Below the pieces are notes generated by a model. The model searched no databases, was not told the DNA's origin, and saw nothing but the letters and a program-made list of their open reading frames with translations. From NCBI GenBank assembly GCA_016202645.1, contig JACQOF010000003.1:27375-91374 (forward strand): a stretch of 64,000 bases of DNA, written 5' to 3'. Positions 10,469 through 45,529 of the stretch are shown piece by piece (positions within the stretch are counted from its first letter, which is position 1; each line of letters begins with the position of its first letter). The position numbers and the translations under genes are program-made. This DNA comes from a bacterium. GTDB taxonomy: Bacteria; Lindowbacteria; 2-12-FULL-62-27.

Positions 10469-10478
10469 CGGTTGGCGA

Positions 10479-11894: not shown

Positions 11895-11895
11895 T

Positions 11896-12597: not shown

Positions 12598-12606
12598 GCG
12601 AATTCC

Positions 12607-31180: not shown

Positions 31181-33898
31181 CTACCGAAGTAATTCCGTCG
31201 TCGCCGCCAGCCGCCGGCTGAGGATGGCCGAGAGGTTGTGCAGAACGCGCGTGGCCAGGCGCGGATACCGGCGCTCCATCCGCTCGAGGGCTTCGTAGCC
31301 GAACGCGAAAACCGTCGTCTCCTCGTTCACGAGAACGTCCGCGCTACGGGGATGCTCACTGATCAGGCCCATTTCGCCGACGGTCTCGCCCCGGCCGAGG
31401 CGGGTGACGACGCGGCCGGATTTGAGGATGGAAACCGACCCGTCAAGAATCACGAACATTTCGTCGCCGAGAGAGCCTTCCTGCATGAGGGGCCAGTTTT
31501 CGGGTATAGTCATCATCCGACCGAGGGACACGATCTTTTTGATCTGGGATTCTGAAAGATTTAAAAATAGCGGGATGCCGCGCGTGACGTCGGATTTGAA
31601 CTTGATCTGCCACCATTCCCAGATGCCGACCAGGGGGATCCAGCCGAGGAGGCCGGGCATCATGACGAAGTCGTCGAAGCAGGCCATGATCATGGCGATG
31701 ACCATGAAAAACCCGAAGAGCCGCACCGGCTCGAATTCGGAAAACAAAAGGACCGAAAATCCGACCGCCAGCGCCGCGTTCGTGTAAAGCATCGCCCGGC
31801 CCACCCCGCTGACGACTTCCCGCACCGCCAGCCGCCCCTGCGGCCGCGCGCGGATGTTCCGCATATAGTGAACGATGAAATGGACGGTGTCGTCGACGGC
31901 GATGCCGAGCGCGACAGACGCCAAGAGCGCCGTGGCGATGTCGATGCGGATGCCGAGATAACCCATGACGCCCAGCACCGCGGTGATCGGCGCGATGTTC
32001 GGGATCATCGCCAGGAAACCGACTTTGGCCGCGCCGAAACAGACCCACATCACCAGAAAAATGCCGAGCGCGGTCCCGAGAAATCCCTGGATCTGGCCCT
32101 TCAGAATCGCCTGATTGGCCCGGCAGGCCATGTAGAGGTCCCCGGTGACGTAGCCCTTGAGGTCCTCGGGCCAGTTTTCCCGGATGTAGGCGTTGAGACG
32201 GTCGGCCAGCGCGAGGATCTCCGGCGAGCTGACGTTTTCCACGCGGATCTCGATCCGTGAGCGGTCGTAATCGTAGTTGACGAAACGGTCAAAATGCGAC
32301 GGGTCGTCTCCGACCGTGGCCACCAGGAGAAGCTGTGAAATCTCAAGATGGTCGTCCGGAATTTTTTCGAGGGCCGGGTCGCCCGAATGCACCGCGCGGT
32401 TCAGGCGCTTGACGGTGTCGACGAAGGAGAAGGTTTTCAGGACGTACGGCTGGTCCGCAGCGAAGGCCTGCAGGGATTCGATGGCTCTGAGGGTTTCCGG
32501 ATTTTTCATCGACGCGGGCGAGCCGCCCTCCGCCACCACCGACAGGGACAGCGCCCCGCCGAGGTGTTTTTCGAGCATCTGAAATCCGAGACGCACCGGC
32601 GCGTCTTCCTTGAAAAATTGTTTGGGGTCATTTTCCACACGCAAGGACAGGAGCCCCAGAGAAAGAATCAGGGTCAGGCCGAATGTGAACACGAGGGTCC
32701 GGCCTTTGTTCCTGTAAAACATCTGGGAATACTCGGCGATGGACTTCATCCAGCCGCTCGTCCGCGACGGCGTGACGGTTCCCACGCGGACCCGGAACGC
32801 CAGGAGCGGGAGCGATGTGAACAGGCAGACCGAGGTGCAGAAAAGTCCCAGGGAGGAAAAAAATCCGAACTGGCGGATGGCCGGGATGTCGGTCAGACAG
32901 AGAGACGCCATCCCGATCATCGTCGTGAACTGCGCCAGGACCAGCGGGAAAAACGTGTCGGCGGCGGCGTTTTCACAGATCGTCACCGGGTCCTCCTCGC
33001 AGTCCCCATAGAACGACAACCGGGTCAGAAATTGCAGGGAGTAAGTGGTGCTGAGCGTCATGAGGACGGTCGGCAAAATGACGTCGATGGGCGTCAGGGA
33101 CCGGCCAAGCCATCCGATCACGCCGAACATCCAGACCAGGGACATGAGCATGAGTCCGAGCGGGAGCAGAACGCCGGCGGCAGTCCGGAATATCCAGAAC
33201 AGAAAAATTCCAATGACAAGGGCGGTGAGGGGAAGAAGACGTTTCATTTCCCGAAGCATGGCCTGGTGGAGCTCGACGGTCTGGAGGTGCCCGCCGGCGA
33301 AGTGGACCGGGACCTTCGGCGCTTCCAGTTTGAAGACGTCCTTGAACCGCTTCGTCAGATAGTCGAGCTGGACCGCGCGGATGTGCGGCCAGGTCCGGAC
33401 GATCACCGCCGCGTAGCGGCCGTCGGCGGAAATCAGATGGTTGACGAAATGGCGGTCGTCCAAAACAGCCTGCCGCAGACGCGACGCCTCCTCATCTGTT
33501 CCAGGCGGCCGCGAGCCGATCCGGTAGGCCTCGAGTGTCCTGCCCGAACCCCTGTACATCGGTTCGTGGGTCAGGCTGGTGACCCGTTTGGTTCCCGGCA
33601 GGCGCTCGACGGCGGTGGAAACTTTCGACAAGATTGCGAGGTTCTCGGGGGTGAAGACGTCGTCAAACTCGAGCAGAGCGATGAGAAACCGGTCGTCCCC
33701 GAATTCCTGGACATTCTGCCGGTACTTCAGAAGTTCCGGGTTCTGGGTCTCGATGAAGAGGTCGTCCGAGGTGTCGACTTGAAGGTTCGGATACGTCAGA
33801 TGCCAGAGGCCGCCACCGAGCGCGGCCGTGATCAGGACCATCAGGAAAGAGACCTTGCCGCGGTTTCTATGCAGGAACTGGATGTATTTTCGCGTCAT
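31181..33898 (-). CDS. MMPL/RND-superfamily transporter fused to a C-terminal cyclic-nucleotide-binding (cNMP) domain
   Basis: Two 6-TM bundles, each preceded by a large periplasmic domain (HpnN/MMPL architecture). The C-terminal ~120 aa carries the CRP-type cNMP-binding signature LGRGETVGEMGLI...RSADV. The start was set at MTRKY because it overlaps the upstream stop by ATGA. Confidence 0.8.
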   Translation of the reverse strand: MTRKYIQFLHRNRGKVSFLMVLITAALGGGLWHLTYPNLQVDTSDDLFIETQNPELLKYRQNVQEFGDDRFLIALLEFDDVFTPENLAILSKVSTAVERLPGTKRVTSLTHEPMYRGSGRTLEAYRIGSRPPGTDEEASRLRQAVLDDRHFVNHLISADGRYAAVIVRTWPHIRAVQLDYLTKRFKDVFKLEAPKVPVHFAGGHLQTVELHQAMLREMKRLLPLTALVIGIFLFWIFRTAAGVLLPLGLMLMSLVWMFGVIGWLGRSLTPIDVILPTVLMTLSTTYSLQFLTRLSFYGDCEEDPVTICENAAADTFFPLVLAQFTTMIGMASLCLTDIPAIRQFGFFSSLGLFCTSVCLFTSLPLLAFRVRVGTVTPSRTSGWMKSIAEYSQMFYRNKGRTLVFTFGLTLILSLGLLSLRVENDPKQFFKEDAPVRLGFQMLEKHLGGALSLSVVAEGGSPASMKNPETLRAIESLQAFAADQPYVLKTFSFVDTVKRLNRAVHSGDPALEKIPDDHLEISQLLLVATVGDDPSHFDRFVNYDYDRSRIEIRVENVSSPEILALADRLNAYIRENWPEDLKGYVTGDLYMACRANQAILKGQIQGFLGTALGIFLVMWVCFGAAKVGFLAMIPNIAPITAVLGVMGYLGIRIDIATALLASVALGIAVDDTVHFIVHYMRNIRARPQGRLAVREVVSGVGRAMLYTNAALAVGFSVLLFSEFEPVRLFGFFMVIAMIMACFDDFVMMPGLLGWIPLVGIWEWWQIKFKSDVTRGIPLFLNLSESQIKKIVSLGRMMTIPENWPLMQEGSLGDEMFVILDGSVSILKSGRVVTRLGRGETVGEMGLISEHPRSADVLVNEETTVFAFGYEALERMERRYPRLATRVLHNLSAILSRRLAATTELLR

Positions 33899-34698
33899 CG
33901 CAGAGAGGTCACGTTTTCTTCGGTGAAGAAGTCCACAGGCAGGTTGCGGTTGATTTGAACATCCTCGAAAGTCATTTCCGTCCAATGGGGACGCAGGGGG
34001 CTGAAGACGGCCCGGCGGCGCGCGCGCCAGTGCCGTCCGTCCGGCCGATAAAAATCGGACCAGGTCGACGTTTTGAAGAGCCGGCCGAGCGTGTCGAAAT
34101 AATCGGCGCGCAGGAGCACCAGCCGTTCCGTGTCGACCCACAGAAGCTGGTGGTCGTAGGCCGCGCGGGACTTGATCGTCTCCGCCGTCGGCGTCACCCG
34201 GATGACCTGCGCCGGGCGGCCCTCCAGATTTTCTTCCCGGATGGTTTCAAATGCGTAGTCGTCGAGGACAAACGGCACGAAATCCTCATAGGTCAGGTCA
34301 CTGCCGAAAACGTAATCGCTTTTGCCGCTCTCGGAAAGAATCTTGGGGTTCCGGAACGCCGGCAGATAAAGCCATTGGTAATTTTCTCCGGCCGGCTGGT
34401 TGATGCTCACCAGAGTCATGCCATTGAGATCATTCGGCTCGAGAAACCTGAGAAGCACCGCGCCCATGTTGTTCTCGGGCGCGCGCTGATAGAAGGTTTT
34501 GATCCGCCACCGCTTCTGCTGGCCGTTGGGATGAATAAGCAGAAGGGACGCCACGCTCACTTCATCGGCCGGCCCCAGATTCGCGTCCACCAGCGCCATC
34601 ACATTCCGCGCGTTCGGCGCCCCGGGCAGAGTCTCCGCAGGGAGCGTTCCACACATCAGCAGGCACAGGAGTACTCCCCCCGCAAGTCGCCGGAACAT
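33895..34698 (-). CDS. LolA-like outer-membrane lipoprotein-sorting family protein
   Basis: Signal peptide and ~245-aa LolA-like fold size. Gene-order partner of MMPL/HpnN transporters. Confidence 0.65.
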   Translation of the reverse strand: MFRRLAGGVLLCLLMCGTLPAETLPGAPNARNVMALVDANLGPADEVSVASLLLIHPNGQQKRWRIKTFYQRAPENNMGAVLLRFLEPNDLNGMTLVSINQPAGENYQWLYLPAFRNPKILSESGKSDYVFGSDLTYEDFVPFVLDDYAFETIREENLEGRPAQVIRVTPTAETIKSRAAYDHQLLWVDTERLVLLRADYFDTLGRLFKTSTWSDFYRPDGRHWRARRRAVFSPLRPHWTEMTFEDVQINRNLPVDFFTEENVTSLR

Positions 34699-35575
34699 GG
34701 CAGCACCCTACCACAAATCCCGCTCCATAGACCATCCCATCTCCCCCTGAAGGGGGGAGAGGCCATCCGCCCAAGGCGGACGGGTGAGGGGGGAAAGAAT
34801 CATCTTGTTTCCATCTTCCCCTCACAATATTTTTTGACTCGCCTTTCATTCCATGCCCCGCCTTTGAATTTTTCACGAAAACGCCGGTAAAAGAATAGGC
34901 GTAGTGGATGTTGACGGTGTGAGTCTCCCCGCCTTTGACAATCTCCTGTGTTTCCTTTTGTTTATTCTTCTTTCGAACATCGTCGCAGGCGATTTTTGAG
35001 AAGAGTTCTTCGGCCAACGCCTTGCACGCGGGGTCCGGGTGTCGCCGGGCATGATCGTGGCCCAGGATGTATTTATCAATAAATCGGAGACCGCCGGAAA
35101 ACCAAAAGATGACAATGCCCGCGATTACAAAGACCGGCGCCAGCCCTGCTTTACCGAAAAGCCTGGCCCGCGAAAAAGGATGGAAATACAGGATTGAAGA
35201 GACAGCGACAATGGCCCTGACAATCAGGAGCACAAAAACGTACGGTCCGAGCAATCTGTACACGTATCGACCAGGGCTGAGGCCGATCATGTATCCGAGC
35301 GCGACGATTGTGAAAAGGAGCGATACCAAGGTCAGGCAGGAATCAAATGTGATGAGTCGCGACGTCCATTTTGTGTCCTTCATTAATACGGCGAGAATCA
35401 GAGCGTGATAGACGGCGTAGGCCGCTGTGAAAAGATGCCATTTCGGAAAAGGAAACGCCGGATCCAGCACGGATTGGTAGACGCTCCACAGGGCGCTCGC
35501 CAGAAACCCCAGGGCAAGAAATCCGTTGAGTCCATAGATCAACCCCCTGGATGCACGGCTTTTTGGATCCATCAT
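34562..35575 (-). CDS. polytopic membrane protein (5 TM) with cytoplasmic tail; 3' end uncertain
   Basis: The first ~250 aa are convincing: TM helices followed by a charged tail. The ORF then reads through a hairpin-rich, intergenic-looking stretch and overlaps the LolA-like start by 137 nt. A frameshift or a shorter true product is possible. Confidence 0.45.
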   Translation of the reverse strand: MMDPKSRASRGLIYGLNGFLALGFLASALWSVYQSVLDPAFPFPKWHLFTAAYAVYHALILAVLMKDTKWTSRLITFDSCLTLVSLLFTIVALGYMIGLSPGRYVYRLLGPYVFVLLIVRAIVAVSSILYFHPFSRARLFGKAGLAPVFVIAGIVIFWFSGGLRFIDKYILGHDHARRHPDPACKALAEELFSKIACDDVRKKNKQKETQEIVKGGETHTVNIHYAYSFTGVFVKNSKAGHGMKGESKNIVRGRWKQDDSFPPHPSALGGWPLPPSGGDGMVYGAGFVVGCCHVPATCGGSTPVPADVWNAPCGDSARGAERAECDGAGGRESGAGR

Positions 35576-37203
35576 TTTGGCGAGGGCGTTTCCTCGGTCA
35601 CATCCATCTTCCGCACGGGCGTTCTCGTGGGATCGGAGTCGATCGATCCCTGCCAGGATAAATCATGATCTTCGGGATCAATCTTATGAATATCGGTTCG
35701 GCCGGTGAAGGCCACTGCGAACGTCGCTGTTCCATCGAGTCGATAACTTCCAGGGTACAAAAACCCTCGCCCTCTTTCGCTTCCGGACCACCAAACATGA
35801 AAATCGCCGACAAGGATGTGAATATTTTTGGGGTCTAAACGGCCCTGCCCGCGCACAATCCCCGTATCTTTGAGGGAGAGGAATTTTTTGCCGGACGGTC
35901 GCTCACTCCAGTAGAACCATTCGTATTTACCGCGTTCAGGTTCGGTGCGTTGTTCGTCGAGAATCAGAACGCCAAGCGCCGACCCGTGTTTGAGCAAAAT
36001 GACTTCTTTATCTTTGGTTCGTCCCCGAAACGCCTGTCGGCGGCCCCTCTCACCCGTCCAATAGTGCTCGCACTTTTTAAAATCGTGGCTTCGGATATCA
36101 AGGCGGATGGCCTTCCCGGGAACTTTAAAGTCCGACCGGCACAGCGAACATTGGATTCGAAAAAATGCAAACTTTCTGGGATCGCCGTGATCGTAACGGC
36201 TCCACTTTCTAAGTTCGGCAAAGCCCGGCTGCTTACGCGTCTGCCATTGCAGATTTGGGGCGGTCGGATCAACTTTGGCAAGATCGGCTTCCTGTGTAAA
36301 ACAAACGGAAACGGGCGGAGCTTTGGAATTCATATCTCTGGCCGGCAAGAGATTGCCGGAAAGAGTGTCCCGGCCCGGTTCCCATCCCAAACGGATCGGT
36401 CCGAGGATAATTTCCTTTTCTCGGACGTATTCTTCGGAGTTTCGGGTCAGCCGGCCTTTTTTGACATCGGGATCATCCGGCCGGAATGGTCCCTGCCCAT
36501 CCTCGCGGAGATACCAACGAAGGTCGAAGTCGGCATCGCGCCCGCGCGCAGAGGTGGTTTGCGAGTCAAAGATCACCGCGGCCAAAGTTTTTCCCATACG
36601 CGCCAATACAATCTCGCCGTTCCATGCCCGGCCGACATAGGCCCGGTACCATCCCGGCGGCATCGCCCAACTGTGCGAGCACCTGTCAAAATCATGGCCC
36701 AACGTGCCCGGCTCGATTTTCGTGCCTGGAAACGATATTTCCGAACCACATTGACCGCAGGTCAGGTACACGGTATCTGCCTTGCGTGGGTCCGTGTTGA
36801 GTTTTGGGGATGTCGGCGCCCGGTTACCTTGTGGCAACCGGCGGCGTTTCGCCGGAGCGCGTTTCGGAGATGGCTTCCCGAGCCGACTCATTGTCCGAGT
36901 GTCAACGTAGATGCGGTGTTTGATTTGCTGAAAGATTTCGTCGGAAATATCCGGAACGTGCTGGATATCTTCCACCGATTTGAACGCCCCATACGTATAT
37001 CGATATGCGTCGATCATCTTGGCGCGGTATTCATCGATGCCCGGCAGTGTCTTAAGCTCCCCAACACCGGCGCTGTTGATATCCACACTCCGCGAACCCG
37101 GCGGATTTTTGCCGACGGAACGCCCGTCGGCGGCCGTGGCACACATCAGAATGAGGCCGATCCAGACCAGTACGGATTTCAGGCCCCCTTTCCTCTTATT
37201 CAT
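35572..37203 (-). CDS. secreted ComEA-like helix-hairpin-helix protein with duplicated Cys-motif domain
   Basis: Start MNKRKGG overlaps the upstream stop by ATGA. Signal peptide is followed by a ComEA HhH domain (VDINSAGVGELKTLPGIDEYRAKMI...FKSVEDI). Two ~100-aa internal repeats each contain C-x2-C ... HDF(D/K)(R/K)C(S/E)H(S/Y)W. Confidence 0.6.
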   Translation of the reverse strand: MNKRKGGLKSVLVWIGLILMCATAADGRSVGKNPPGSRSVDINSAGVGELKTLPGIDEYRAKMIDAYRYTYGAFKSVEDIQHVPDISDEIFQQIKHRIYVDTRTMSRLGKPSPKRAPAKRRRLPQGNRAPTSPKLNTDPRKADTVYLTCGQCGSEISFPGTKIEPGTLGHDFDRCSHSWAMPPGWYRAYVGRAWNGEIVLARMGKTLAAVIFDSQTTSARGRDADFDLRWYLREDGQGPFRPDDPDVKKGRLTRNSEEYVREKEIILGPIRLGWEPGRDTLSGNLLPARDMNSKAPPVSVCFTQEADLAKVDPTAPNLQWQTRKQPGFAELRKWSRYDHGDPRKFAFFRIQCSLCRSDFKVPGKAIRLDIRSHDFKKCEHYWTGERGRRQAFRGRTKDKEVILLKHGSALGVLILDEQRTEPERGKYEWFYWSERPSGKKFLSLKDTGIVRGQGRLDPKNIHILVGDFHVWWSGSERGRGFLYPGSYRLDGTATFAVAFTGRTDIHKIDPEDHDLSWQGSIDSDPTRTPVRKMDVTEETPSPK

Positions 37204-39194
37204 CTTCGACCCCTCCCTTCGCGGTGGTTCAATGCGTACATCGCCCACAGTCCCCAGACATTGAAAAGCAGGAGCGTCAGGTAGGGGAAGGACGTCTGTA
37301 TCAGCATGGGCCGGACATAAAATCTGAACAAAAGCGCGCAGGCCGCAAACGCTATGAAACAGACGATCCCGCCGCGACGGTATGACGCCGGGTCCATCCC
37401 TTCGAAGAAGGCCGACGGCGGGTCGTTCGAGATGAACCGGTCGACCACGAATCCGATCACGCACCAGGCCGGAAACGGCAGCCACTTTAAGTCGTCGAGA
37501 ACAGGATGGGAAGGGGCGTCATAGGGAACTTCAACCCGCCTGGCGAGCTGTCCCCTGTTGTCAAAATAGAGGATCTGCTGGGGTCCGTGTTGAATCATTC
37601 TCTGAAACAGCGCAAACCCCCCGGCGTCCAAGATGCCGACGGAGAGAGGGTCGGATGCGGACATGCCCCCGATGGGAAATCTTGTCCGGCGCAGGGCCGA
37701 AGGATCCATGACGAAGCGTTCGTCATCATCGGCGGGATTCTCCTGGAGAGGGAAGGCCGTCAGTTCGCTATCGGTCAGCAGGGCGACCCAGAATCCGCGC
37801 GCGGACAGCCGGTCGAACCGCAGAAGGCCGGCGCCCATGCGCCGGATGTTCCCGTCAAATTCAGCAATCTTCCGGGCTGAACTGTGCGTCCGGGCGAACG
37901 TCACGTGATAGAGGACGCGGCCCGCAGCCAGAAGACGTTCGTTCGGCCTGTCCGGCAGGGCGATCAGGTAATCCGCCTGATCGTCTATCTCCTCGAATTC
38001 ACCCGCCGGCGTTTCGTAATGAAATCCATCCGGAACAAGCCATCCGATGCGTTCGCGGCTCACGGGATCGTAGGCGACGATTCGATTTGCTCCGGGATCG
38101 AGAAACCAGTTCCAATCGTCTGTCAGATGCCCATAGGAGACGTTTTCCTCGTATGGGACGTAGAGACGCGTCGTGCCTTTGGCGTTGAGTGAGAATCGTT
38201 CGACGGCGTCTTCCATCGGATGATCCAGACGAATGGTTGAGGACGCCGCTTCATAGGGCCACGGCCCGGCGACCTCCGGAAGCGGACGCCCCTCCAAATC
38301 GAATACCCTCGCCAGACGGCCTTCGCCCGGGCTGACCAGCCAGGCGGCGCCGTCGGACTTCACGGAAATTTCGCGGTTCGGCCCGGGATTCAACAAATCC
38401 GGCAAAATACCCACAACGGCGCCGGGAAAAATAGTCAACGCGGTTGAGACGAATGCCGTGATCCACCACGGGAGGGGCTTTGAGCCTGGAGGCGAAACGC
38501 TCCATTGCAAAAAAGTTCTTCGAGCAAACAGGATCATCGAAACACACAACAGAACCGCGGCGAGAAAGAGAGGGAAGCCCATTTTGAATCCATCCCCCAG
38601 CGGGGGCTGGGTTGTGCCGCCGGCCATGAGCAAGACTATTCCGAAGGCCAACAAGGTACAGAGCACCACCCCCGAATTCCGTTGGGGGGAGAATGAGTAA
38701 TAGAAGACAAGCAGATAGACGCAGATCCCCCGGACGATGGATGCAGTTGCGGGGACCAGCAAGATCCATGAGAATGGCGACGCGAACGAACTCCGGACGA
38801 GCGACACCCACGTACAGACCATCAGGGGTGCGCCGAGAGTGACCAGCAAAATCAGAATCCCGGCGGCGGCTTTGCCGGCGCCGACGGATCCGCGTCCAAC
38901 CGGCCGTGTGAGCAGGACGGGCCACATTCCGTGGGCGGTTTCGGGACGAATCTGCAGGACCCCCAGGACCAATCCCGCGCAACACGCATAGACGTTCAGG
39001 GCGACCAGAAACGAAAGCTGGAGATGGGGAAGGATCATGTTTTCCGACAGGATGAGGACGCTGAACCGGAACGCGCCGATCCGGGCGAATCCGAGCGCGT
39101 CCAAGAAAAACGCGCAGATCAGAAATTGGCCGGCGAAGACAACCAGCATCGCACGCCGAAGGGACTGAAATTCTCTTTTCAGAACGAACGTCAT
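37200..39194 (-). CDS. ABC-2 type permease with large extracytoplasmic (propeller-like) domain
   Basis: Six N-terminal TM helices, a ~350-aa soluble insert and C-terminal TM helices. Translationally coupled to the ABC ATPase upstream. Confidence 0.6.
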   Translation of the reverse strand: MTFVLKREFQSLRRAMLVVFAGQFLICAFFLDALGFARIGAFRFSVLILSENMILPHLQLSFLVALNVYACCAGLVLGVLQIRPETAHGMWPVLLTRPVGRGSVGAGKAAAGILILLVTLGAPLMVCTWVSLVRSSFASPFSWILLVPATASIVRGICVYLLVFYYSFSPQRNSGVVLCTLLAFGIVLLMAGGTTQPPLGDGFKMGFPLFLAAVLLCVSMILFARRTFLQWSVSPPGSKPLPWWITAFVSTALTIFPGAVVGILPDLLNPGPNREISVKSDGAAWLVSPGEGRLARVFDLEGRPLPEVAGPWPYEAASSTIRLDHPMEDAVERFSLNAKGTTRLYVPYEENVSYGHLTDDWNWFLDPGANRIVAYDPVSRERIGWLVPDGFHYETPAGEFEEIDDQADYLIALPDRPNERLLAAGRVLYHVTFARTHSSARKIAEFDGNIRRMGAGLLRFDRLSARGFWVALLTDSELTAFPLQENPADDDERFVMDPSALRRTRFPIGGMSASDPLSVGILDAGGFALFQRMIQHGPQQILYFDNRGQLARRVEVPYDAPSHPVLDDLKWLPFPAWCVIGFVVDRFISNDPPSAFFEGMDPASYRRGGIVCFIAFAACALLFRFYVRPMLIQTSFPYLTLLLFNVWGLWAMYALNHREGRGRR

Positions 39195-40120
39195 CCGGGT
39201 TCAACCATCGCAATGAACAATTCCTCGAGGTTCATCTTGTGGACGGAGACGCCCGGATACTCCATGAGACGCCGTTCGGCCCGGTCACAGTACGCCACCA
39301 CGCGCCACTCGTTCTCGGACTGTATCGCCCGAAGGACGCCGGGAATCCGGGGAATGTCCGCAGCGCGGGCCGGGAAGGGAATGACATACTTTCGGACGGC
39401 GCCGAGAATGTCCGACAGCGGTTCATCGAGAATGACGCTGCCGTCCCGCAGAACACCGACTCGGTCTGCGAGTTTGGCGACGCTGAAGATGTCGTGGGTC
39501 GTGAGGAGGATCGAACAGCCGCGGTCAGCAAGCTCCCTCAGAACGACGCCGAAAACTAGGTTACGCGCGATCTGGTCGAGACCCAGGGTGGGATCGTCGA
39601 GGATCAGAAAATCCGGGCGGGCGCTGACACAAAGAGCCAGCGCGGCCAGCGCGCGTTCGCCCCGGGACAACTGCGCCGGACGGGCGTCTTCCCGCAGGGA
39701 AAAAGATTTCAGGCAGTCGGAAAAAAAAGCGTCATCCCACGACGGGTACAGCGGCCGATGGAGCCTGGCCGCGTGGCGGATGCTGAACGCCGGGTCCATC
39801 GGATGGCCTTCAGGCATATACCCAATCCGTCGGAACGCATCCCGGCCCAATTCGGATGAAGCCCGGCCAAAAGCAAAAGACTGGCCGGAGGTTGGGTTAA
39901 GCAGGCCCAGAAGGACATGGATGGCGGTCGTTTTGCCGGCGCCGTTCCGGCCCAGCAAGGCGTAGATCGTGCCCGGCTCGATCGAAAAGGAGACTTCAGT
40001 CAATATATTTTTGGGATGACCCTTGTTGGGGACCGTGACGGTGACTTGTTCCAGCGCCGCGACAGGACCGGGAGGATTATCCGGCAAGTTTGCGTTTCTC
40101 CAGGCGCTGGGTCTGGGCAA
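39191..40120 (-). CDS. ABC transporter ATP-binding protein
   Basis: Walker A GRNGAGKTT, signature LSRGERALAAL and Walker B LILDDPTLGLD. The annotated start overlaps gntR by 44 nt, so the true start may be a downstream TTG. Confidence 0.85.
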   Translation of the reverse strand: MPRPSAWRNANLPDNPPGPVAALEQVTVTVPNKGHPKNILTEVSFSIEPGTIYALLGRNGAGKTTAIHVLLGLLNPTSGQSFAFGRASSELGRDAFRRIGYMPEGHPMDPAFSIRHAARLHRPLYPSWDDAFFSDCLKSFSLREDARPAQLSRGERALAALALCVSARPDFLILDDPTLGLDQIARNLVFGVVLRELADRGCSILLTTHDIFSVAKLADRVGVLRDGSVILDEPLSDILGAVRKYVIPFPARAADIPRIPGVLRAIQSENEWRVVAYCDRAERRLMEYPGVSVHKMNLEELFIAMVEPG

Positions 40121-40484
40121 AGGATTTGCGCGCCAGACCCGCGAACTGCCGGCCGTCCAGCCCCGCCAGCCTCGCCTCCACGGCCGGCGACTGCAAGAGT
40201 CCTTCGACGCGCCGGACGGTCCGGGCGGAGGGTTTCGATCCGAACGAAATAAAACTGCCGGATCCCTGGATGAGCGTCAGCACGCCGTCCTTTTCAAGCT
40301 CGCGGTAGGCCCGGGCGATCGTGTTGGGATTGACCGCGCAAGCCTCGGCCAGCTCCCGGACGGTCATCAGGGAGTCGCCCGGTTTCAGCTCTCCGGTCGC
40401 GACCCGGAGTTTGACCTGGTCGACAATCTGCAGAAAAATCGGTGTCGGCGACGTCGGATCGGCCTTGAAGGGCGCTCTTGACAT
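40077..40484 (-). CDS. GntR-family transcriptional regulator (YtrA-like short C-terminus)
   Basis: Winged HTH with MTVRELAEACAVNPNTIARAYRELEKDGVL. The GntR-ABC ATPase-permease triad is typical of the YtrA subfamily. Confidence 0.85.
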   Translation of the reverse strand: MSRAPFKADPTSPTPIFLQIVDQVKLRVATGELKPGDSLMTVRELAEACAVNPNTIARAYRELEKDGVLTLIQGSGSFISFGSKPSARTVRRVEGLLQSPAVEARLAGLDGRQFAGLARKSFAQTQRLEKRKLAG

Positions 40485-40505
40485 TGTATTAGTAGAACTA
40501 ATACA
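40485..40505. promoter_or_regulatory. perfect palindrome TGTATTAGT-AGA-ACTAATACA (candidate GntR operator)
   Basis: 9-3-9 perfect inverted repeat directly abutting the gntR ATG. It lies inside a 44-bp divergent intergenic region. Confidence 0.5.
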
Positions 40506-40528
40506 TTAAGGCCGTGCCGTCAATAGAA

Positions 40529-43099
40529 ATGTCGAAAAAGGCCGGTCCGCTCCTTGTTCTGTGCGCGGCCCTCGCGGCGTGCGGGGAATCCCCCGTGACA
40601 AATCCCGCCGTCTGGGAGCCGGAATCAAACCACCCGGCGACGCGCGCCATGATTGCCGCGGCGCGGCACCTCGGGAAATCCGGCCTGTCAGACGCGCTTC
40701 GGACCCATTCCGAAAACATGCCGTTCTCGGGGTATTATCTGAAATTCGTGAGAGAAGGAAATTTCGCGGCCCGGCGACGCATCGTGAATGATTCCGGTCC
40801 CGTCATCACGGAATCCGATGAACAGACGCTCGGTCTGAACCTCACGGACTTCGATCGGCAATTCGAAGCGGCGGGGGATACGCCCATTCCTCTTTCCGTT
40901 GTGCAGACAACCCTCTTTTCCCTGTGCCAGCTTGCCACCTATGCGGTTCATCTCGATTTGGCGGTGGCGGATGAACTCGCCGGTTCCGCCGCGGCCCTGC
41001 TGGCCTGGCTGGAATCATCGATGCAGGAGGAACCGTCCATCCGCCTTTTCCGGGGCTGGATTTTTTATCTTGCCGGTGACGCACCGGGCGGCCGGCGGGA
41101 ATTGTCCGAATGCGGCGGCGAACCCTGGAAAAGCCGGGCGGAGGCGTTGGATTTTTACATCCAGTCAAAACCAAAAGAGTTGAGAAGCAGGTTGGACAAA
41201 TCGGAACCGTGGCTGGGAATGCTGTATGCAATGTCCCTGGAATCCGAGGACGTGGATGAGGCCGTCAAGGCATACAAACGACAGGTTGATCGGGGGCACG
41301 ATAATCTGCTGCCGATGCTGACTGTCGGTGGTCTGATTGAACTCGGCAACCCACAGGCGTCCAAGCATGAGGTGACCGAAGCCGGCGCGTGGATGGTGTT
41401 GGACGCCGCCGTCCCGGGTGACGCGAGCTTGCCGGAAAAATACAAGAAACTTCTGAATCTGGGGAACACGCGGGCCATTCTCACGCCGCTGATGACGAAT
41501 TTGTACCTCGGCTATTTTCGCCGGGGCGTTTTCACACGCCACGAGTTTGTCGAAAACGTCCTTGCGGCCAACGCGATGAAAAAACAATTTCTTGAGGAAT
41601 TGGCCGAAATCGGAGATCCCATCCTCGATTATCTGGCGGCGTTGACCGACATCCGGGAGAGCCGGCTGTCGGCGGGCGCTGACCGGTTTCGGAAAATCGC
41701 CGCCAATGTCAGGGATCCCTATCTGCTCGAACGGCTCAACTTGGGCCTTCCGGAGGAATGGGGCGCGCCGTTTGTGAACGAGGTCCAGGACCATCCTTAC
41801 GAAAGCTGGAGATACTACCGCCATGCCGGACTCCTCTGTGCCCGGTACGGCTGGTTTCGGAAAGCGACCAGATTTTTGAACAATTCCCTCGCTCTGAATC
41901 CTTACCAGGAAGATTTAAAAAAGATCGTCGCGACCTACAAGGAAATGTCCGCGGGACCGGATGCCTCTTTTAACCCGCAGAACGATCCGGCGCTCGGAAC
42001 TCAGTTCGCCTTTTCGATCTGGAGTCCCGAAGTCGACCGCGCGATCGAGCACATCCGCCGGAATCCCGAATTCGTCCCGAAAGAGGAGGGCATGGCGTTC
42101 GACCTGACGACCTGGATGGAATTCCGGGGAGAATACAAAGAAGCGATCGAGTTTGCGGAGCGCTGCCTGGACGCATGGCCTGAAAACATATTCGCGGCCA
42201 ATCTTTCCGCAAAGATCGGATGGATCCACCTCAAACGGCTGAAAGACGTGGAAACCGCCCGGAAACAATTCGAAAAAATGGAATGGTTTAACAACGGAAG
42301 CAACCTCCTCGGGCTGGCCGAATGTTATGAAAAATTGGGAGACGCGGAGGAGGCCGAACGGCGCTATCTGGACGATGATGAAAGGTATGGCCAAGCCGAC
42401 AAGCATTTCCCGCTGGCGGCGTACTACATCCGCCGGGGGGAATATGAGAAGGCCCTGGACGCCATCAACGACCCGGACCTGTTTTCCGGGCCGAACCCGC
42501 GCAGGGAATTTGTGACGTACGCCCTGACCTTTTATGTCGACGAGTCCTATCCGACCCTGGTGCAGATGCTCTACGAAAAAGTCATCCCCGACCGCAAGAG
42601 CTGGATTTCCTATGACTACAGCCAGTGGGCGCTGTCGTATATGCTGATGCAGAATTACGCCAAAGTGGAGGAGATCGTGGCAGCAGCCAAAAAATCGCGT
42701 GAAACGAATCCATTTCTGGATTATTTCCGGTACGTCATCGCCTGCAAACAAAAGAACTGGCCCCAAGCGGCGCAGGCCATTCAGGCCACAACGGGGAAAT
42801 ATTATCACCGGTACTTGCCGGGTGCGCTGGTCGAGGGAAAAGAACAGGCCGAGCTGGAAGAATACTCCCGCGGCAAGCCGCAGTATCAAAGCTACCTTTC
42901 GACGATGTATGGCCTCCTCGCATACCGTCACATCGCCAAAGGCTCTCTCAAGGAGGCGGAAAAATTCTTCAAACTGGACGCCGGCAGCATTCGCTACTCA
43001 ACCTGGCACATCCCCATTCTGGCCTCGTACGAAATTGGCGAGCGAATCCCGGTCACGGGGCCTTCGAGGACGCCGGGAGGTTCTGATGCAACGCGATAG
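40529..43099 (+). CDS. TPR/alpha-solenoid lipoprotein (about 857 aa)
   Basis: Start MSKKAGPLLVLCAALAACG has an LAAC lipobox. The remainder is predicted helical-repeat. Confidence 0.55.
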   Translation: MSKKAGPLLVLCAALAACGESPVTNPAVWEPESNHPATRAMIAAARHLGKSGLSDALRTHSENMPFSGYYLKFVREGNFAARRRIVNDSGPVITESDEQTLGLNLTDFDRQFEAAGDTPIPLSVVQTTLFSLCQLATYAVHLDLAVADELAGSAAALLAWLESSMQEEPSIRLFRGWIFYLAGDAPGGRRELSECGGEPWKSRAEALDFYIQSKPKELRSRLDKSEPWLGMLYAMSLESEDVDEAVKAYKRQVDRGHDNLLPMLTVGGLIELGNPQASKHEVTEAGAWMVLDAAVPGDASLPEKYKKLLNLGNTRAILTPLMTNLYLGYFRRGVFTRHEFVENVLAANAMKKQFLEELAEIGDPILDYLAALTDIRESRLSAGADRFRKIAANVRDPYLLERLNLGLPEEWGAPFVNEVQDHPYESWRYYRHAGLLCARYGWFRKATRFLNNSLALNPYQEDLKKIVATYKEMSAGPDASFNPQNDPALGTQFAFSIWSPEVDRAIEHIRRNPEFVPKEEGMAFDLTTWMEFRGEYKEAIEFAERCLDAWPENIFAANLSAKIGWIHLKRLKDVETARKQFEKMEWFNNGSNLLGLAECYEKLGDAEEAERRYLDDDERYGQADKHFPLAAYYIRRGEYEKALDAINDPDLFSGPNPRREFVTYALTFYVDESYPTLVQMLYEKVIPDRKSWISYDYSQWALSYMLMQNYAKVEEIVAAAKKSRETNPFLDYFRYVIACKQKNWPQAAQAIQATTGKYYHRYLPGALVEGKEQAELEEYSRGKPQYQSYLSTMYGLLAYRHIAKGSLKEAEKFFKLDAGSIRYSTWHIPILASYEIGERIPVTGPSRTPGGSDATR

Positions 43100-44147
43100 T
43101 TTTTCGAGGCGTAATTTTTTACGCTCGATGACACTCGCCGGAGCGGCCTGCCTGTTCCGGCCTCAAATAATGATGAATCGAGTCTGGGCAGATGAGAAAA
43201 AACTCAGGAAAGCAAGCTTTGTCAGCGATCTGTTTAATGAATCCCTGGTCATCGACGGGATTGTGAATTGGCGCGCGAAGAGTCTTGAAGCTGTTCCAAA
43301 ATCACCCGGAGAAATTAAAAGGTTGACAGGGATTAACGTGGGCGCCCAGACCGTTTTGGTGGAGCAGCTCGCCAAATTCAACCGCTGGATCCGGGCGCAT
43401 CGAAACGCATTCACTGTGATACGGACATCCAAGGACATCACCGATGCAAGGACGTCGGGCCGGTATGGCGTCATTTACTACGTCCAAAAACCTCCGGCGG
43501 GGACGATCAACATGGAAAGCCTGGAGCAGTGGAAAAGAGAAGGTCTCCGAATATTTCAAATGACCTACAGTGAAAGCAACGCATTGGGCGGCGGGTGCGA
43601 CGATGGGGATGACGATGGCCTGACGCCATTAGGGGAAGAAGTGGTTCAGAACCTGAACCGGCTGGGAATGGTTGTTGATGTATCGCATTGCGGTCGCCAA
43701 ACGACTTTGGATGTGTGTGAACTGTCGAAATACCCGGTGACCGCCAACCATGCCAACGCGGAAGCCGTTACAGAACACCAAAGAAACAAGTCCGATGAGG
43801 AATTAAAGGCTGTTGCGGCCACGGGCGGCGTTGTCGGTGCCGTGACAGTCGGCCGTTTTCTGCGCCGGGGCGAGGACCTGATGGTGGGCGGCGGAATCGA
43901 TGATCTGATCGCCCATATCGATTACATGGTCGACTTGATCGGCATCGACCACGTCGGCTTGGCGAGCGACTGTTGGCTCGACGGCATTCAGGTCTATGAA
44001 TATGATACGACCGACAAGTATTTAAACAGCTATGCTCGCTGGAAACATGTTGTTCGCCGGCTGCGCGAAATGGGATACTCGAAGGAGAATCTTAAGAAAT
44101 TGCTGGGCCTGAATTTTTTACGGGTCTATCAAAAGGTGTGGGGGTAA
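43086..44147 (+). CDS. membrane dipeptidase (peptidase family M19) with Tat signal
   Basis: Twin-arginine motif SRRNFLRSM. M19 motifs include DVSHCG and HVGLASD. Confidence 0.8.
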   Translation: MQRDSFSRRNFLRSMTLAGAACLFRPQIMMNRVWADEKKLRKASFVSDLFNESLVIDGIVNWRAKSLEAVPKSPGEIKRLTGINVGAQTVLVEQLAKFNRWIRAHRNAFTVIRTSKDITDARTSGRYGVIYYVQKPPAGTINMESLEQWKREGLRIFQMTYSESNALGGGCDDGDDDGLTPLGEEVVQNLNRLGMVVDVSHCGRQTTLDVCELSKYPVTANHANAEAVTEHQRNKSDEELKAVAATGGVVGAVTVGRFLRRGEDLMVGGGIDDLIAHIDYMVDLIGIDHVGLASDCWLDGIQVYEYDTTDKYLNSYARWKHVVRRLREMGYSKENLKKLLGLNFLRVYQKVWG

Positions 44148-44204
44148 GATGACTTTTATGCTTATCATGGCGGTCGTGGCATCTGATCCTATGGGGAAAA
44201 ACAA

Positions 44205-45479
44205 GTGAACAAATTCACACTCATCTCCACATTCCTCATTTTAACAATGTTATTCATCCGAACCCAGGCCCACGCCGAAAAGGCGATCAACGATGATAAG
44301 ATATACAAACTGATAGACAGCCTGCGTGGGCAAAGCTCACAGATAAAAGTTGACGGTAGTTCTACCGACTGGAAAGGCATTCCCGCTTTCAAAGCCTCGC
44401 GGGAAGCTTTCGTAAATGACGGTTCTCGAGATATCGTGAATATTTCAATAGCGCCGCGAGAAGATGAACTCCTGATTCTGATTAAAACACGGGGAAGGCC
44501 GTCTCAAGATCCCTTGACGTTTTATACTCGTCTCGATTTTATCGGCCAACACGAAAGCGATTGTCAAATAGGGTTCGGCCAGGACGGGGTTCATAGATTG
44601 AAGGTATATGACGAAAGAAATAATTCAGAAACCATTCTGGAGACAGTCATCCGAGGGCCCGAAATCGTCGTTGGGGATGCCGTCGAAATTCGTATTCCAT
44701 TTCAGTCTCTGAAGGAATTGCTTCCCGAAAAAATGGCGAAGCAAATCGACGGCCCTCGGGGACGGCCCTGGATTCGGGTCTACACTTTTGCTTGGAACCC
44801 AAAGACTCAAAAAATTGCAGATTACGGACCGGCAGTCGCGAGTTTTCGTCTTATCAAAACGCCATATCCGCTCGACCCACCCGCACCGCATAAAATTCGC
44901 CCGGAATTCGGCATCCGTGTGCCCTTCAAAAACAAGTGGTTTCTTGGAAATGGAGCGTTCGGCCTTAGAGCGCATGTGAATGTACATGGATATGACTTTT
45001 ATATCATGGACGACCATCTCAACCCCGCACAAAACCGGGGAAGCAAGAATAACGAAGACTATTACACATGGGGATTGCAATTTCTATCGCCTGTTGACGG
45101 AGAAATTACAAAGGTTACGAACAATATGCCGGACAGGAAGCCATTGAACAAAGTTGAAGCGGCAGGAAACAATGTATGGATCGCTCTTGATTCAGATCCA
45201 GACCTATCCATAAATCTAAATCATTTCCAAATGGGGACGATCAAAGTCCAAACAGGGGACAGTATTCGTGCGGGTGAAGAGATCGGGTTGGTCGGAAACT
45301 CGGGCCAATCGGGATGGCCTCATATCCACATGGGATTGGTTCAGAAAGACCTGTCGACTCTGCCGATCAGTTTTTCAAATGTCATCGTAAGTTTGAATCC
45401 ACAGGCCGACGACCCGTGGTCGCGGGATCTGTCTATATGGGAACTCAGAGCGGGAGTCTTCATTCAGAATAAAAATTAA
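44205..45479 (+). CDS. secreted M23/LytM-family metallopeptidase with N-terminal accessory domain
   Basis: Signal peptide. The C-terminal catalytic motif is GLVGNSGQSGWPHIHMGL (HxH) preceded by YDFYIMDDH. GC content of this gene is markedly lower than its surroundings. Confidence 0.7.
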   Translation: MNKFTLISTFLILTMLFIRTQAHAEKAINDDKIYKLIDSLRGQSSQIKVDGSSTDWKGIPAFKASREAFVNDGSRDIVNISIAPREDELLILIKTRGRPSQDPLTFYTRLDFIGQHESDCQIGFGQDGVHRLKVYDERNNSETILETVIRGPEIVVGDAVEIRIPFQSLKELLPEKMAKQIDGPRGRPWIRVYTFAWNPKTQKIADYGPAVASFRLIKTPYPLDPPAPHKIRPEFGIRVPFKNKWFLGNGAFGLRAHVNVHGYDFYIMDDHLNPAQNRGSKNNEDYYTWGLQFLSPVDGEITKVTNNMPDRKPLNKVEAAGNNVWIALDSDPDLSINLNHFQMGTIKVQTGDSIRAGEEIGLVGNSGQSGWPHIHMGLVQKDLSTLPISFSNVIVSLNPQADDPWSRDLSIWELRAGVFIQNKN

Positions 45480-45529
45480 CCTATTGTCAGGCAGACGGAA
45501 TAGAACGAGAAAAAAATGAAGGAAAAAAT

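What the first reader, a model, noticed from the sequence alone, without database searches (positions are those of the whole stretch)
35572..37203. ComEA-like HhH protein carrying a tandemly duplicated ~100-aa Cys/His-motif domain of unrecognised family
Seen in sequence: after a signal peptide and a clear ComEA-type helix-hairpin-helix module, the protein contains two copies of a domain with the conserved skeleton C-x2-C-x(18-20)-HDF-x2-C-x-H-x-W-x(15-20)-G-x-I/V-hydrophobic block-D. Examples are TCGQCGSEISF...GHDFDRCSHSWAMPPGWY...IVLARMGKTLAAVIFD and QCSLCRSDFKV...SHDFKKCEHYWTGERG...VILLKHGSALGVLILD. Three Cys plus one or two His per repeat suggests a zinc-binding module. I cannot place it in a known family. 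A periplasmic DNA-binding HhH fused to a putative metal-binding repeat inside an exporter operon is unusual.
Basis: seen in the sequence. Interest (0 to 1): 0.55.

Follow-up and report, generated by a model that had tools for sequence, protein, structure and literature searches.

The report
Secreted HhH protein with unnamed zinc-capped repeats
This is a real gene for an exported protein that joins a ComEA-type helix-hairpin-helix module to two copies of a ~180-residue, probably zinc-capped all-beta domain from an uncatalogued family; its function is unknown and it is of moderate interest.

Summary
Window 35572-37203 (minus strand) encodes a 543-aa protein with a Sec signal peptide and one Pfam HHH_3 (ComEA-type) module. 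A very basic 44-aa linker follows, then two diverged copies of one module (28% identity, BLASTP E 6e-21).

Corrections and extensions:
- The module is about 180 aa, not about 100. It is a ~45-aa C-x2-C...C-x-H-x-W cap plus a ~130-aa all-beta core.
- It belongs to a real family: 145 50%-identity clusters reached E<=0.001. These are mostly small lipoproteins or membrane-anchored proteins from uncultured Verrucomicrobiae, Planctomycetota and Acidobacteriota.
- The family has no match in Pfam, NCBIfam, PDB sequences, PDB folds or BFVD.
- AlphaFold models are confident (pLDDT 84 and 88).
- Zinc binding is supported comparatively. Where the cap is present the Cys/His positions are 81-100% conserved, and the third Cys is replaced by His in several members. 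It could not be checked in 3D.
- The HhH module is atypical: acidic, with both Gly-x-Gly hairpins degenerate. DNA binding is therefore plausible but not assured.
- The HhH fusion is unique among the family representatives.
- The gene is translationally coupled inside a YtrA/PmtR-type GntR plus ABC exporter operon whose membrane proteins are orphans.

Most likely it is a non-enzymatic periplasmic adaptor. Its function remains inferred.

The parts
35572..37203 (-). CDS of the 543-aa HhH plus 2x repeat protein (NCBI: 'helix-hairpin-helix domain-containing protein [bacterium]')
   Evidence: SD and ATGA overlaps
37132..37203 (-). Sec-type signal peptide, aa 1-24 (MNKRKGGLKSVLVWIGLILMCATA|AD)
   Evidence: read from the sequence; one hydrophobic segment at aa 7-25
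36910..37092 (-). HHH_3 (ComEA-type) double helix-hairpin-helix module, aa 38-98. Hairpins read G55-I56-D57 and D85-I86-S87. R60 and K95 align with ComEA-Bs K164 and K199.
36775..36906 (-). Lys/Arg/Pro-rich linker, aa 100-143, pI 12, net charge about +10
36226..36774 (-). Repeat 1 of the unnamed module, aa 144-326
36661..36771 (-). Repeat 1 Cys/His cap (C149, C152, C175, H177, W179; lineage-specific H170)
35629..36171 (-). Repeat 2 of the unnamed module, aa 345-525
36052..36162 (-). Repeat 2 Cys/His cap (C352, C355, C378, H380, W382; lineage-specific H373)
40077..40484 (-). First gene of the operon: 135-aa GntR-family regulator of the short YtrA/PmtR type
   Evidence: Pfam GntR, E 1.4e-14; best NCBIfam hits PmtR and Rv1152, below cut-offs
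39191..40120 (-). ABC transporter ATPase (closest to PmtA/DrrA)
   Evidence: Pfam ABC_tran, E 1.1e-22; NCBIfam
37200..39194 (-). 664-aa orphan polytopic membrane protein, presumed permease. It has 7 N-terminal TM segments, a ~340-aa soluble region and a C-terminal TM. Its stop overlaps the start of the HhH gene.
   Evidence: weak ABC2_membrane_2 hit, 16.6 bits against a cut-off of 27.2; TM heuristic; no homologue but itself; no PDB relative
34562..35575 (-). 337-aa orphan membrane protein (5 TM segments). Its start overlaps the stop of the HhH gene.
33895..34698 (-). LolA_like periplasmic protein with a signal peptide
   Evidence: Pfam LolA_like, E 1e-37
31181..33901 (-). MMPL/HAE3-type RND transporter with a C-terminal cyclic-nucleotide-binding domain

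Best explanation
This is a genuine gene for a Sec-exported, soluble periplasmic protein of an uncultured diderm bacterium.

Anatomy (shown):
- a signal peptide;
- one ComEA-type (HHH_3) double helix-hairpin-helix module;
- a 44-residue Lys/Arg/Pro-rich linker, presumably flexible (disorder was not modelled);
- two old, diverged copies of a ~180-residue module.

Each module is a ~45-residue beta-hairpin cap carrying C-x2-C...C-x-H-x-W, packed on a ~130-residue all-beta core of about eight long antiparallel strands. The module belongs to an uncatalogued family of extracytoplasmic proteins. Most members are small lipoproteins or membrane-anchored proteins. A few carry it as the C-terminal outward-facing domain of polytopic or BlaR1-type membrane proteins.

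How it probably works (inferred):
- The cap binds one structural Zn2+ through Cys2-Cys-His.
- The beta cores are non-catalytic binding modules.
- The HhH module plus the basic linker hold a polyanion, most likely double-stranded DNA.
- The protein therefore acts as a multivalent periplasmic adaptor or tether. It is made stoichiometrically with, and probably docks onto, the ABC-type exporter encoded by the translationally coupled neighbouring genes. All of these are under a YtrA/PmtR-type GntR repressor.
For: - Gene reality and coupling: SD and ATGA overlaps on both sides; identical operon on two independent metagenome contigs.
- HhH module: HHH_3 E 1.8e-14; ComEA structures 8dfk and 8dss at E about 1e-6. 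The two ComEA residues whose loss costs more than 2 logs of transformation (Bs K164, K199; PMC9747964) align with R60 and K95.
- Linker: pI 12, charge about +10.
- Repeats: E 6e-21 to each other.
- Family: 145 clusters at E<=1e-3; the independent family HMM gives 202 bits.
- Extracytoplasmic location: 118 of 145 representatives have an N-terminal signal, lipobox or at least 4 TM segments. One member is a BlaR1 (M56) protein paired with BlaI and carries LysM. The window encodes a TonB-dependent receptor, so the organism is diderm.
- Metal site: where the cap is present, C 100%, C 100%, C 81%, H 97%, W 91%. In at least eight members the third Cys is replaced by His, reading H-G-x-H-x-W or H-x-H-x-W.
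- Structure: both models put C-x2-C in a beta-hairpin turn and C-x-H just before a strand. Models are confident: pLDDT 84.3 and 88.5, pTM 0.79 and 0.78.
- Non-enzymatic: each window repeat has lost a different subset of the family's near-invariant polar residues. R1 has S->E. R2 has D->S and core C->A.
- Exporter context: ABC_tran ATPase closest to PmtA/DrrA, regulator closest to PmtR/Rv1152.
Against: - No experiment and no characterised homologue supports any function of the beta module.
- Contexts of about 25 related loci are heterogeneous, so there is no guilt by association.
- The HhH module is acidic (pI 5.5) and both G-h-G hairpins are degenerate. It scores below the NCBIfam ComEA cut-offs. 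DNA binding may therefore be weak or lost.
- The 'permease' call rests on gene position and TM count. Its Pfam hit is below threshold.
- Physical interaction with the transporter is pure inference from translational coupling.
- Convergence of the Cys/His side chains was not measured.
Confidence: 0.4

Rival explanations
1. The HhH module no longer binds DNA. Like PsbU in photosystem II, it is a protein-protein docking module. On this reading the whole protein is a periplasmic subunit or sensor of the neighbouring transporter and has nothing to do with nucleic acids.
For: - The HhH module has pI 5.5 and net charge -2.
- Both G-h-G hairpins are replaced, reading G-I-D and D-I-S.
- It scores below the ComEA NCBIfam cut-offs: 45.6 against 152, and 39.4 against 53.
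- PsbU chains appear among the PDB hits at E 0.014-0.7.
- No competence genes were found among the window ORFs scanned.
Against: - Similarity to ComEA (E about 1e-6) and to EEPD1 HhH modules (E 1.7e-14) is much stronger than to PsbU.
- The two functionally most important ComEA basic residues are kept as R60 and K95.
- The adjoining +10 linker is what one expects next to a nucleic-acid binder.
Confidence: 0.3
2. It is the organism's ComEA orthologue: the periplasmic DNA receptor or ratchet of natural transformation, with extra C-terminal domains.
For: Signal peptide plus HHH_3 module. ComEA structures are among the best PDB hits.
Against: - It is far below the TIGR01259 cut-off.
- The hairpins are degenerate and the module is acidic.
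- HhH is N-terminal and followed by 440 further residues, unlike known ComEA architectures (PMC9747964).
- It is embedded by 4-nt overlaps in an ABC exporter operon.
- There is no comEC or pilus gene among the larger ORFs scanned in the 64-kb window.
Confidence: 0.07
3. The Cys/His module is catalytic, for example a zinc-dependent periplasmic nuclease or hydrolase targeted to DNA by the HhH module. EEPD1 similarly combines HhH modules with a nuclease domain.
For: - The best PDB hit of the HhH part is EEPD1, an HhH plus nuclease-fold protein.
- The family core has a conserved Cys (80%), Ser, Asp and Gln.
- One outlier member is fused to a PIN-like nuclease domain.
Against: - The EEPD1 match covers only the HhH modules.
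- There is no match to any enzyme family by sequence or fold.
- The cap has four ligands, which is typical of a structural zinc site rather than a catalytic one.
- About two thirds of family members lack the cap altogether.
- The window repeats have lost different near-invariant core residues.
Confidence: 0.08
4. The cysteines are not metal ligands. In the oxidising periplasm they would form disulfides (C-x2-C redox pair or structural staples) or a haem-attachment site.
For: The location is extracytoplasmic. C-x2-C is also the thiol-oxidoreductase and haem c motif.
Against: - No C-x2-C-H is present in either repeat.
- There is no thioredoxin-like helix content in the models.
- The conserved Cys count in the cap is odd (three), with an invariant His two residues after the third Cys.
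- The third Cys is replaced by His, not lost in pairs, in at least eight relatives. That is the signature of a metal site.
Confidence: 0.05

Closest known systems
ComEA (competence protein; Pfam HHH_3 PF12836, TIGR01259/TIGR00426)
   Same: It is an exported or anchored protein with a compact pair of HhH motifs lacking a connector helix. The best bacterial PDB relatives are ComEA 8dfk and 8dss. Basic residues equivalent to Bs K164 and K199 are kept.
   Different: It scores below both NCBIfam cut-offs. G-h-G is replaced in both hairpins and the module is acidic. HhH sits at the N-terminus instead of the C-terminus. There is no oligomerisation or SLBB domain. About 440 extra residues follow. The gene lies in an ABC exporter operon rather than near com genes.
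PsbU (12-kDa extrinsic protein of photosystem II)
   Same: It is an extracytoplasmic HhH-fold protein and a precedent for HhH used as a protein-docking module without DNA.
   Different: Similarity is weak (E 0.014-0.7). PsbU is a small single-domain protein. There is no photosystem context here.
EEPD1 (PDB 9yi2), tandem HhH modules fused to an EEP nuclease fold
   Same: It is the best PDB hit of the HhH part (E 1.7e-14). Its first hairpin also lacks the second Gly.
   Different: It is eukaryotic. The similarity stops at the HhH modules and there is no EEP domain here.
Zinc ribbons / zinc knuckles (C-x2-C in a beta-hairpin turn plus a second half-site)
   Same: The family consensus T-C-x2-C-G-S-T sits in a predicted hairpin turn. 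A second half-site lies 20-45 residues later. Cys/His are interchangeable at the third ligand. Sporadic sub-threshold Pfam hits to zinc-ribbon models occur.
   Different: The second half-site is C-x-H-x-W rather than C-x2-C. The cap is extracytoplasmic and is always fused to the same beta core. No significant match to any zinc-ribbon family was found.
YtrA/PmtR-type GntR plus ABC-2 (DrrA/PmtA-like) exporter operons
   Same: A short 135-aa GntR gene comes first, followed by an ABC ATPase and then membrane protein(s). The best NCBIfam hits are PmtR/Rv1152 and PmtA/DrrA.
   Different: All hits are below cut-offs. The membrane proteins are orphans. No known operon of this type encodes an HhH protein. 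The B. subtilis ytr operon affects competence only indirectly, through wall thickness (PMC8060467).
Extracytoplasmic sensor domains of BlaR1/MecR1-type (Peptidase_M56) transducers
   Same: In relative P0067 the family domain sits at the extreme C-terminus of a BlaR1-type protein encoded next to a BlaI repressor. That C-terminal, outward-facing end is where BlaR1/MecR1 carry their sensor domain.
   Different: This is a single example. There is no sequence or fold similarity to the penicillin-binding sensor domain. The window protein has no M56 domain.

Membership tests
ComEA (TIGR01259 comE / TIGR00426 ComEA HhH region) | Score at or above the curated NCBIfam cut-off | tested here: not met
   TIGR01259 45.6 bits against 152.35; TIGR00426 39.4 bits against 53.1
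ComEA | Pfam HHH_3 domain present | tested here: met
   54 bits against a cut-off of 27, aa 38-98
ComEA | Canonical G-h-G hairpins in both HhH motifs (main-chain contacts to DNA phosphates) | tested here: not met
   G55-I56-D57 and D85-I86-S87 align with G-V-G and G-I-G of ComEA 8dfk
ComEA | Conserved DNA-contacting Lys (Bs K164 / Vc K63) and K199 | tested here: inconclusive
   They align with R60 (conservative change) and K95. K193 and K197 are replaced by E and Q.
ComEA | Export signal or membrane anchor placing HhH outside the cytoplasm | tested here: met
   N-terminal signal peptide with an A-x-A site
ComEA | DNA binding and a requirement for transformation | not testable with these tools
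   Needs EMSA and genetics. The organism is uncultured.
Unnamed C-x2-C...C-x-H cap plus beta-core family (defined here) | Significant match to a family profile built without the query | tested here: met
Unnamed C-x2-C...C-x-H cap plus beta-core family (defined here) | Core signature: L58, Q73, W84, R87, G90, G104, G118, W124, T154 | tested here: met
   All of these are kept in both repeats. Several other near-invariant positions are lost in one repeat: F117, S125, G132, D89, C152.
Unnamed C-x2-C...C-x-H cap plus beta-core family (defined here) | Cap ligands C, C, C/H, H and the following W | tested here: met
   C149/C152/C175/H177/W179 and C352/C355/C378/H380/W382
Unnamed C-x2-C...C-x-H cap plus beta-core family (defined here) | Extracytoplasmic location | tested here: met
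   Signal peptide here. 118 of 145 relatives have a signal, lipobox or polytopic anchor by a hydropathy heuristic.
Zinc ribbon | Four Cys/His ligands from two beta-hairpin knuckles converging on one Zn | tested here: inconclusive
   Secondary structure and Cys-to-His substitutions fit.
YtrA/PmtR-type GntR-ABC exporter operon | Short GntR regulator followed by an ABC ATPase and an ABC-2 permease in one operon | tested here: inconclusive
   GntR (135 aa) and ABC_tran are clear. The permease hit to ABC2_membrane_2 is 16.6 bits against 27.2. NCBIfam PmtR/PmtA are the best hits but far below cut-offs.

The most novel reading that the evidence does not exclude
The repeat defines a previously undescribed extracytoplasmic domain with a fold that has no relative among solved structures: a zinc-ribbon-capped beta module. 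Verrucomicrobia-, Planctomycetes- and Acidobacteria-like bacteria would use it as a ligand-sensing or envelope-binding unit. In this protein it is uniquely coupled to a DNA-binding HhH module. That would create a periplasmic or extracellular DNA receptor working with an ABC exporter, for example to tether or handle extracellular DNA at the envelope. This would be a DNA-handling route unrelated to the type IV pilus/ComEC pathway.
Probability: 0.1. Interest if true: 0.7.

Novelty: new variant of a known kind. Interest (0 to 1): 0.4.

Why it matters
If the reading is right, two things follow.

First, a compact domain family can be named and modelled. It has at least 145 clusters at 50% identity, confident AlphaFold models and no PDB neighbour. 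It would annotate many 'hypothetical lipoproteins' in poorly studied soil and groundwater phyla. It would also give a rare example of a structural zinc site in exported bacterial proteins.

Second, the one-off fusion to a ComEA-type module inside an ABC exporter operon is a concrete, testable lead. It may show how such bacteria hold or sense DNA, or another polyanion, in the periplasm.

If the HhH module proves inert, the finding reduces to a new domain of unknown function. That is useful for annotation but not surprising.

Tried and rejected
- Word-indexed homologue search with the 403-aa repeat region found only the protein itself.
- The same tool with the 38-sequence profile A2 returned nothing, not even the query. 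I treat this as a limitation of the prefilter.
- The 664-aa neighbour also found only itself.
With the tighter alignment A3 it gave 4 genome loci, 17 mostly short metagenome loci and no viral loci.
- Context analysis of these loci, plus eight further look-ups of family members, gave no recurrent neighbour. The shared synteny of L004, L011, L014 and L015 reflects relatedness only.
- PADLOC shows no defence-system signal apart from generic ATPase hits for the ABC protein.
- PDB sequence searches of the two membrane neighbours found nothing.
- The 664-aa protein is unrelated to the window's other ABC-2/DUF3526 permeases.
- Foldseek hits (CyRPA, SsgB, streptavidin, lipocalin-like histamine-binding protein, nanobodies) all have TM at or below 0.29 and E at or above 0.04. 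I rejected them as noise.
- The best BFVD hit has E 8.5e-3 and TMq 0.32, is unnamed and covers 96 columns. It is not informative.
- A haem c site is rejected because there is no C-x2-C-H.
- A recent tandem duplication is rejected. R1 and R2 are only marginally each other's best hits (73.9 bits against 72 bits to outsiders).
- I looked for model coordinates in the sandbox to measure Cys/His distances. None are exposed.
Full report
**1. The observation**

The region 35572-37203 lies within an ORF on the minus strand.
- A GGGAGGGG Shine-Dalgarno lies 7 nt upstream of the ATG.
- The ATG overlaps the TGA of the preceding 664-aa ORF as ATGA. The gene's own TGA overlaps the ATG of the following 337-aa ORF in the same way.
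- The same protein and gene order occur on two independent Logan metagenome contigs. NCBI lists it as 'helix-hairpin-helix domain-containing protein [bacterium]'.
- Residues 1-24 form a typical Sec signal: a KRK n-region, a 13-residue hydrophobic core and A-T-A before the cleavage site.
- Pfam finds one domain only: HHH_3 at aa 38-98, E 1.8e-14, 54 bits against a cut-off of 27.

**2. The repeats**

BLASTP gives 28% identity and E 6e-21.
- R1 is aa 144-326 and R2 is aa 345-525.
- The motif is C-x2-C-x17-H-D-F-x2-C-x-H-x-W in both copies.

**3. A family exists**

The word-indexed homologue search found only the protein itself. A profile of the two repeats was then run with full HMMER against 1.84 billion cluster representatives.
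- It found 145 proteins at E<=1e-3 and 23 at E<=1e-10.
- A family HMM built without the window sequences scores the window protein at 202 bits. That is E 4.6e-55 at that database size, with R1 at 93 bits and R2 at 107 bits. Membership is therefore not circular.
- Most relatives are 130-250 aa and consist of little more than one copy of the module.
- By a hydropathy and lipobox heuristic, 106 have an N-terminal signal, anchor or lipobox and 12 are polytopic membrane proteins with the module at the C-terminus. Only 6 complete proteins lack an obvious signal.
- A few relatives have two copies.
- Fusion partners seen: PDZ, WD40, a PIN-like domain, and a BlaR1-type Peptidase_M56 with LysM and SecDF_P1_head.
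- The BlaR1-type member is encoded next to a BlaI (Penicillinase_R) repressor and carries the module at its extreme C-terminus.
- Named source organisms are uncultured Verrucomicrobiae, Planctomycetota and Acidobacteriota. No viral contigs were found.
- No other representative contains an HhH module. The window has no second copy of either element.

**4. The family is uncatalogued**
- Pfam: no hit for the window protein, for 10 full-length relatives, or for 38 domain sequences. Only scattered sub-threshold zinc-finger and zinc-ribbon hits appear at E 0.016-0.3.
- NCBIfam: nothing.
- PADLOC: nothing.
- PDB by sequence and by profile: nothing better than E 0.37.

**5. Structure**

AlphaFold2 of R1 with 38 relatives gave pLDDT 84.3 and pTM 0.79. 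R2 with 98 sequences gave pLDDT 88.5 and pTM 0.78.
- Both models show an N-terminal mini-domain of short strands. C-x2-C lies in the turn between strands 1 and 2. C-x-H lies immediately before a later strand.
- About eight long antiparallel strands follow.
- Foldseek against 350,542 PDB chains returned no hit at E<=1e-3 for either model. Best values were E 0.04 with TM 0.24, and E 0.24 with TM at or below 0.29.
- The best BFVD hit was E 8.5e-3 with TMq 0.32, to an unnamed protein.
- AFDB was not available, so 'no known fold' applies only to solved structures at Foldseek sensitivity.

**6. Is the Cys/His motif a metal site?**

I could not retrieve coordinates. The comparative evidence is nevertheless consistent.
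- The ~45-aa cap is optional. It is present in about 34-41% of domains: 41 of 145 proteins match C-x2-C-x(10-45)-C-x-H-x-W directly upstream of the core.
- Where the cap is present, the two Cys of C-x2-C are 100% conserved. The third Cys is 81% conserved, the His 97% and the Trp 91%.
- These figures carry some selection bias, because the alignment HMM was seeded from motif-containing members.
- In the members that lack the third Cys, it is replaced by His. They read H-G-x-H-x-W or H-x-H-x-W. The members are P0044, P0093, P0145, P0085, P0118, P0096, P0087 and P0084.
- Cys-to-His exchange at a constant four-ligand count is what metal sites do and what disulfides do not.
- There is no C-x2-C-H haem motif.
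- The His of 'HDF' is peculiar to this protein.
- A separate core Cys (consensus C-V-T) is 80% conserved, independently of the cap. R1 keeps it (C300) and R2 has Ala.

**7. The HhH module**

Its best PDB relatives are the HhH modules of EEPD1 (E 1.7e-14) and ComEA 8dfk and 8dss (E about 1e-6). PsbU appears at E 0.014-0.7.

Points against a canonical ComEA:
- The scores are below both NCBIfam cut-offs.
- The module is acidic, with pI 5.5 and net charge -2.
- Both G-h-G hairpins are degenerate, reading G-I-D and D-I-S.

Points in favour of DNA binding:
- In the ComEA structure-function paper (PMC9747964), HhH domains are described as contacting DNA mainly through backbone amides. K164 and K199 of B. 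subtilis ComEA each cost more than 2 logs of transformation when mutated.
- By my alignment these correspond to R60 and K95 here, while K193 and K197 are E and Q.
- The following linker (aa 100-143) has pI 12 and about +10 charge.

DNA binding is plausible but unproven.

**8. Context**

The gene is the fourth of seven same-strand genes that abut or overlap one another, most of them by a few bases:
- a 135-aa GntR regulator whose best NCBIfam hits are PmtR and Rv1152;
- an ABC ATPase whose best hits are PmtA and DrrA;
- a 664-aa polytopic protein with 7 TM segments, a ~340-aa soluble region and 1 further TM. Its ABC2_membrane_2 hit is only 16.6 bits against a cut-off of 27.2;
- the HhH protein;
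- a 337-aa protein with 5 TM segments;
- a LolA_like protein;
- an MMPL/HAE3 RND transporter with a C-terminal cNMP-binding domain.

The 664-aa protein was searched and is an orphan. Neither it nor the 337-aa protein has a PDB relative. The rest of the window is ordinary chromosome. It encodes rpoC, a class I tRNA synthetase, asparagine synthase, CobN and ALAD, plus a TonB-dependent receptor that marks a diderm. No competence gene was seen among the ORFs scanned. Consensus promoter and terminator scans were uninformative.

**9. Genomic contexts of relatives**

Contexts are heterogeneous. They include fumarase and Nuo/Mrp, TPR proteins, MoxR with DUF58/VWA, a transposase, a P-type ATPase, POR and ECF sigma, and BlaI/BlaR1. 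None resembles the window operon. There is thus no guilt-by-association clue for the module.

**10. Interpretation**

Shown:
- a real, exported, multi-domain protein;
- one HHH_3 module;
- two copies of an uncatalogued module of a mainly exported or membrane-anchored family (by heuristic), with a conserved Cys2-Cys/His-His cap;
- a unique fusion;
- translational coupling to an ABC-type system.

Inferred:
- The cap binds structural zinc.
- The beta cores are non-catalytic binding units. Each window repeat has lost different near-invariant polar residues.
- HhH plus the basic linker hold DNA or another polyanion.
- The protein docks on the neighbouring transporter.

I rate this adaptor model at about 0.4. 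The main rival, at about 0.3, is the same protein with an inert, PsbU-like HhH. A true ComEA orthologue, an enzyme, and a disulfide or haem reading are each below 0.1.

The B. subtilis ytr operon is a YtrA-regulated ABC system whose overexpression abolishes competence through wall thickening (PMC8060467). It is a curiosity worth noting, not evidence.

**11. Novelty and score**

The protein is a new variant of a known kind: an exported HhH protein. It carries a domain family that no library names and that has no solved-structure neighbour. Uncharacterised families are common in metagenomic data, and no function is established, so overall interest is moderate (0.4). The most novel reading still open has roughly 10% probability. 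It is a new fold serving as an envelope sensor or binding unit, here converted into a periplasmic DNA receptor coupled to an ABC exporter.

Noticed in passing
window 34562-34698 (3' end of the 337-aa ORF against the start of the LolA_like gene): The 337-aa membrane ORF runs 137 nt into the LolA_like gene, which has a convincing signal peptide at its first ATG. Its last ~70 residues are Gly/Cys/Pro-rich and do not look protein-like. The copy on contig L001 is only 97.7% identical over this gene, while the neighbours are 100% identical. This suggests a possible frameshift, assembly variant or over-extended ORF.
   Followed up: partly
window 31181-33901 (minus strand): An MMPL/HAE3-type RND transporter carries a C-terminal cyclic-nucleotide-binding domain (cNMP_binding E 5e-14). 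It directly follows a LolA_like gene. This looks like a nucleotide-gated lipid or lipoprotein export pair.
   Followed up: partly
window about 44000-46000: GC content drops to 0.46 against about 0.60 elsewhere. The stretch encodes a weak Peptidase_M23 protein (44205-45479) and a Kelch-repeat beta-propeller protein (45530-47065). It may be an acquired island.
   Followed up: partly
window 7464-14766 (minus strand): A second, unrelated ABC-2 system is present. It has two paralogous ABC2_membrane_2 plus DUF3526 permeases, next to a PepSY_TM protein and a TonB-dependent receptor.
   Followed up: no
L010:1814-4100: A family member (L010 2812-3516) sits between a MoxR-type AAA_3 ATPase gene and a DUF58/VWA gene, with its ORF boundaries abutting both.
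   Followed up: no
L027:5621-10686 (protein P0067): This is a BlaI (Penicillinase_R) plus BlaR1-type (Peptidase_M56) pair. The 1561-aa transducer carries LysM and SecDF_P1_head domains and has the family module at its extreme C-terminus. The next gene also has SecDF_P1_head.
   Followed up: partly
protein P0112 (L031:715-1992): This is an outlier family hit (E 6.9e-5). A PIN_8 nuclease-like domain is fused N-terminally to the beta core, with no obvious signal peptide. It would be a cytoplasmic exception to the otherwise exported family.
   Followed up: no
window 40514-43099 (plus strand), divergent from the operon: An 861-aa TPR-containing protein with an N-terminal lipoprotein-like signal is transcribed divergently from the GntR gene. 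A Peptidase_M19 dipeptidase gene follows it. The best sigma-70-like promoter match of the region (10/12) lies in the short divergent gap at 40478-40507.
   Followed up: no
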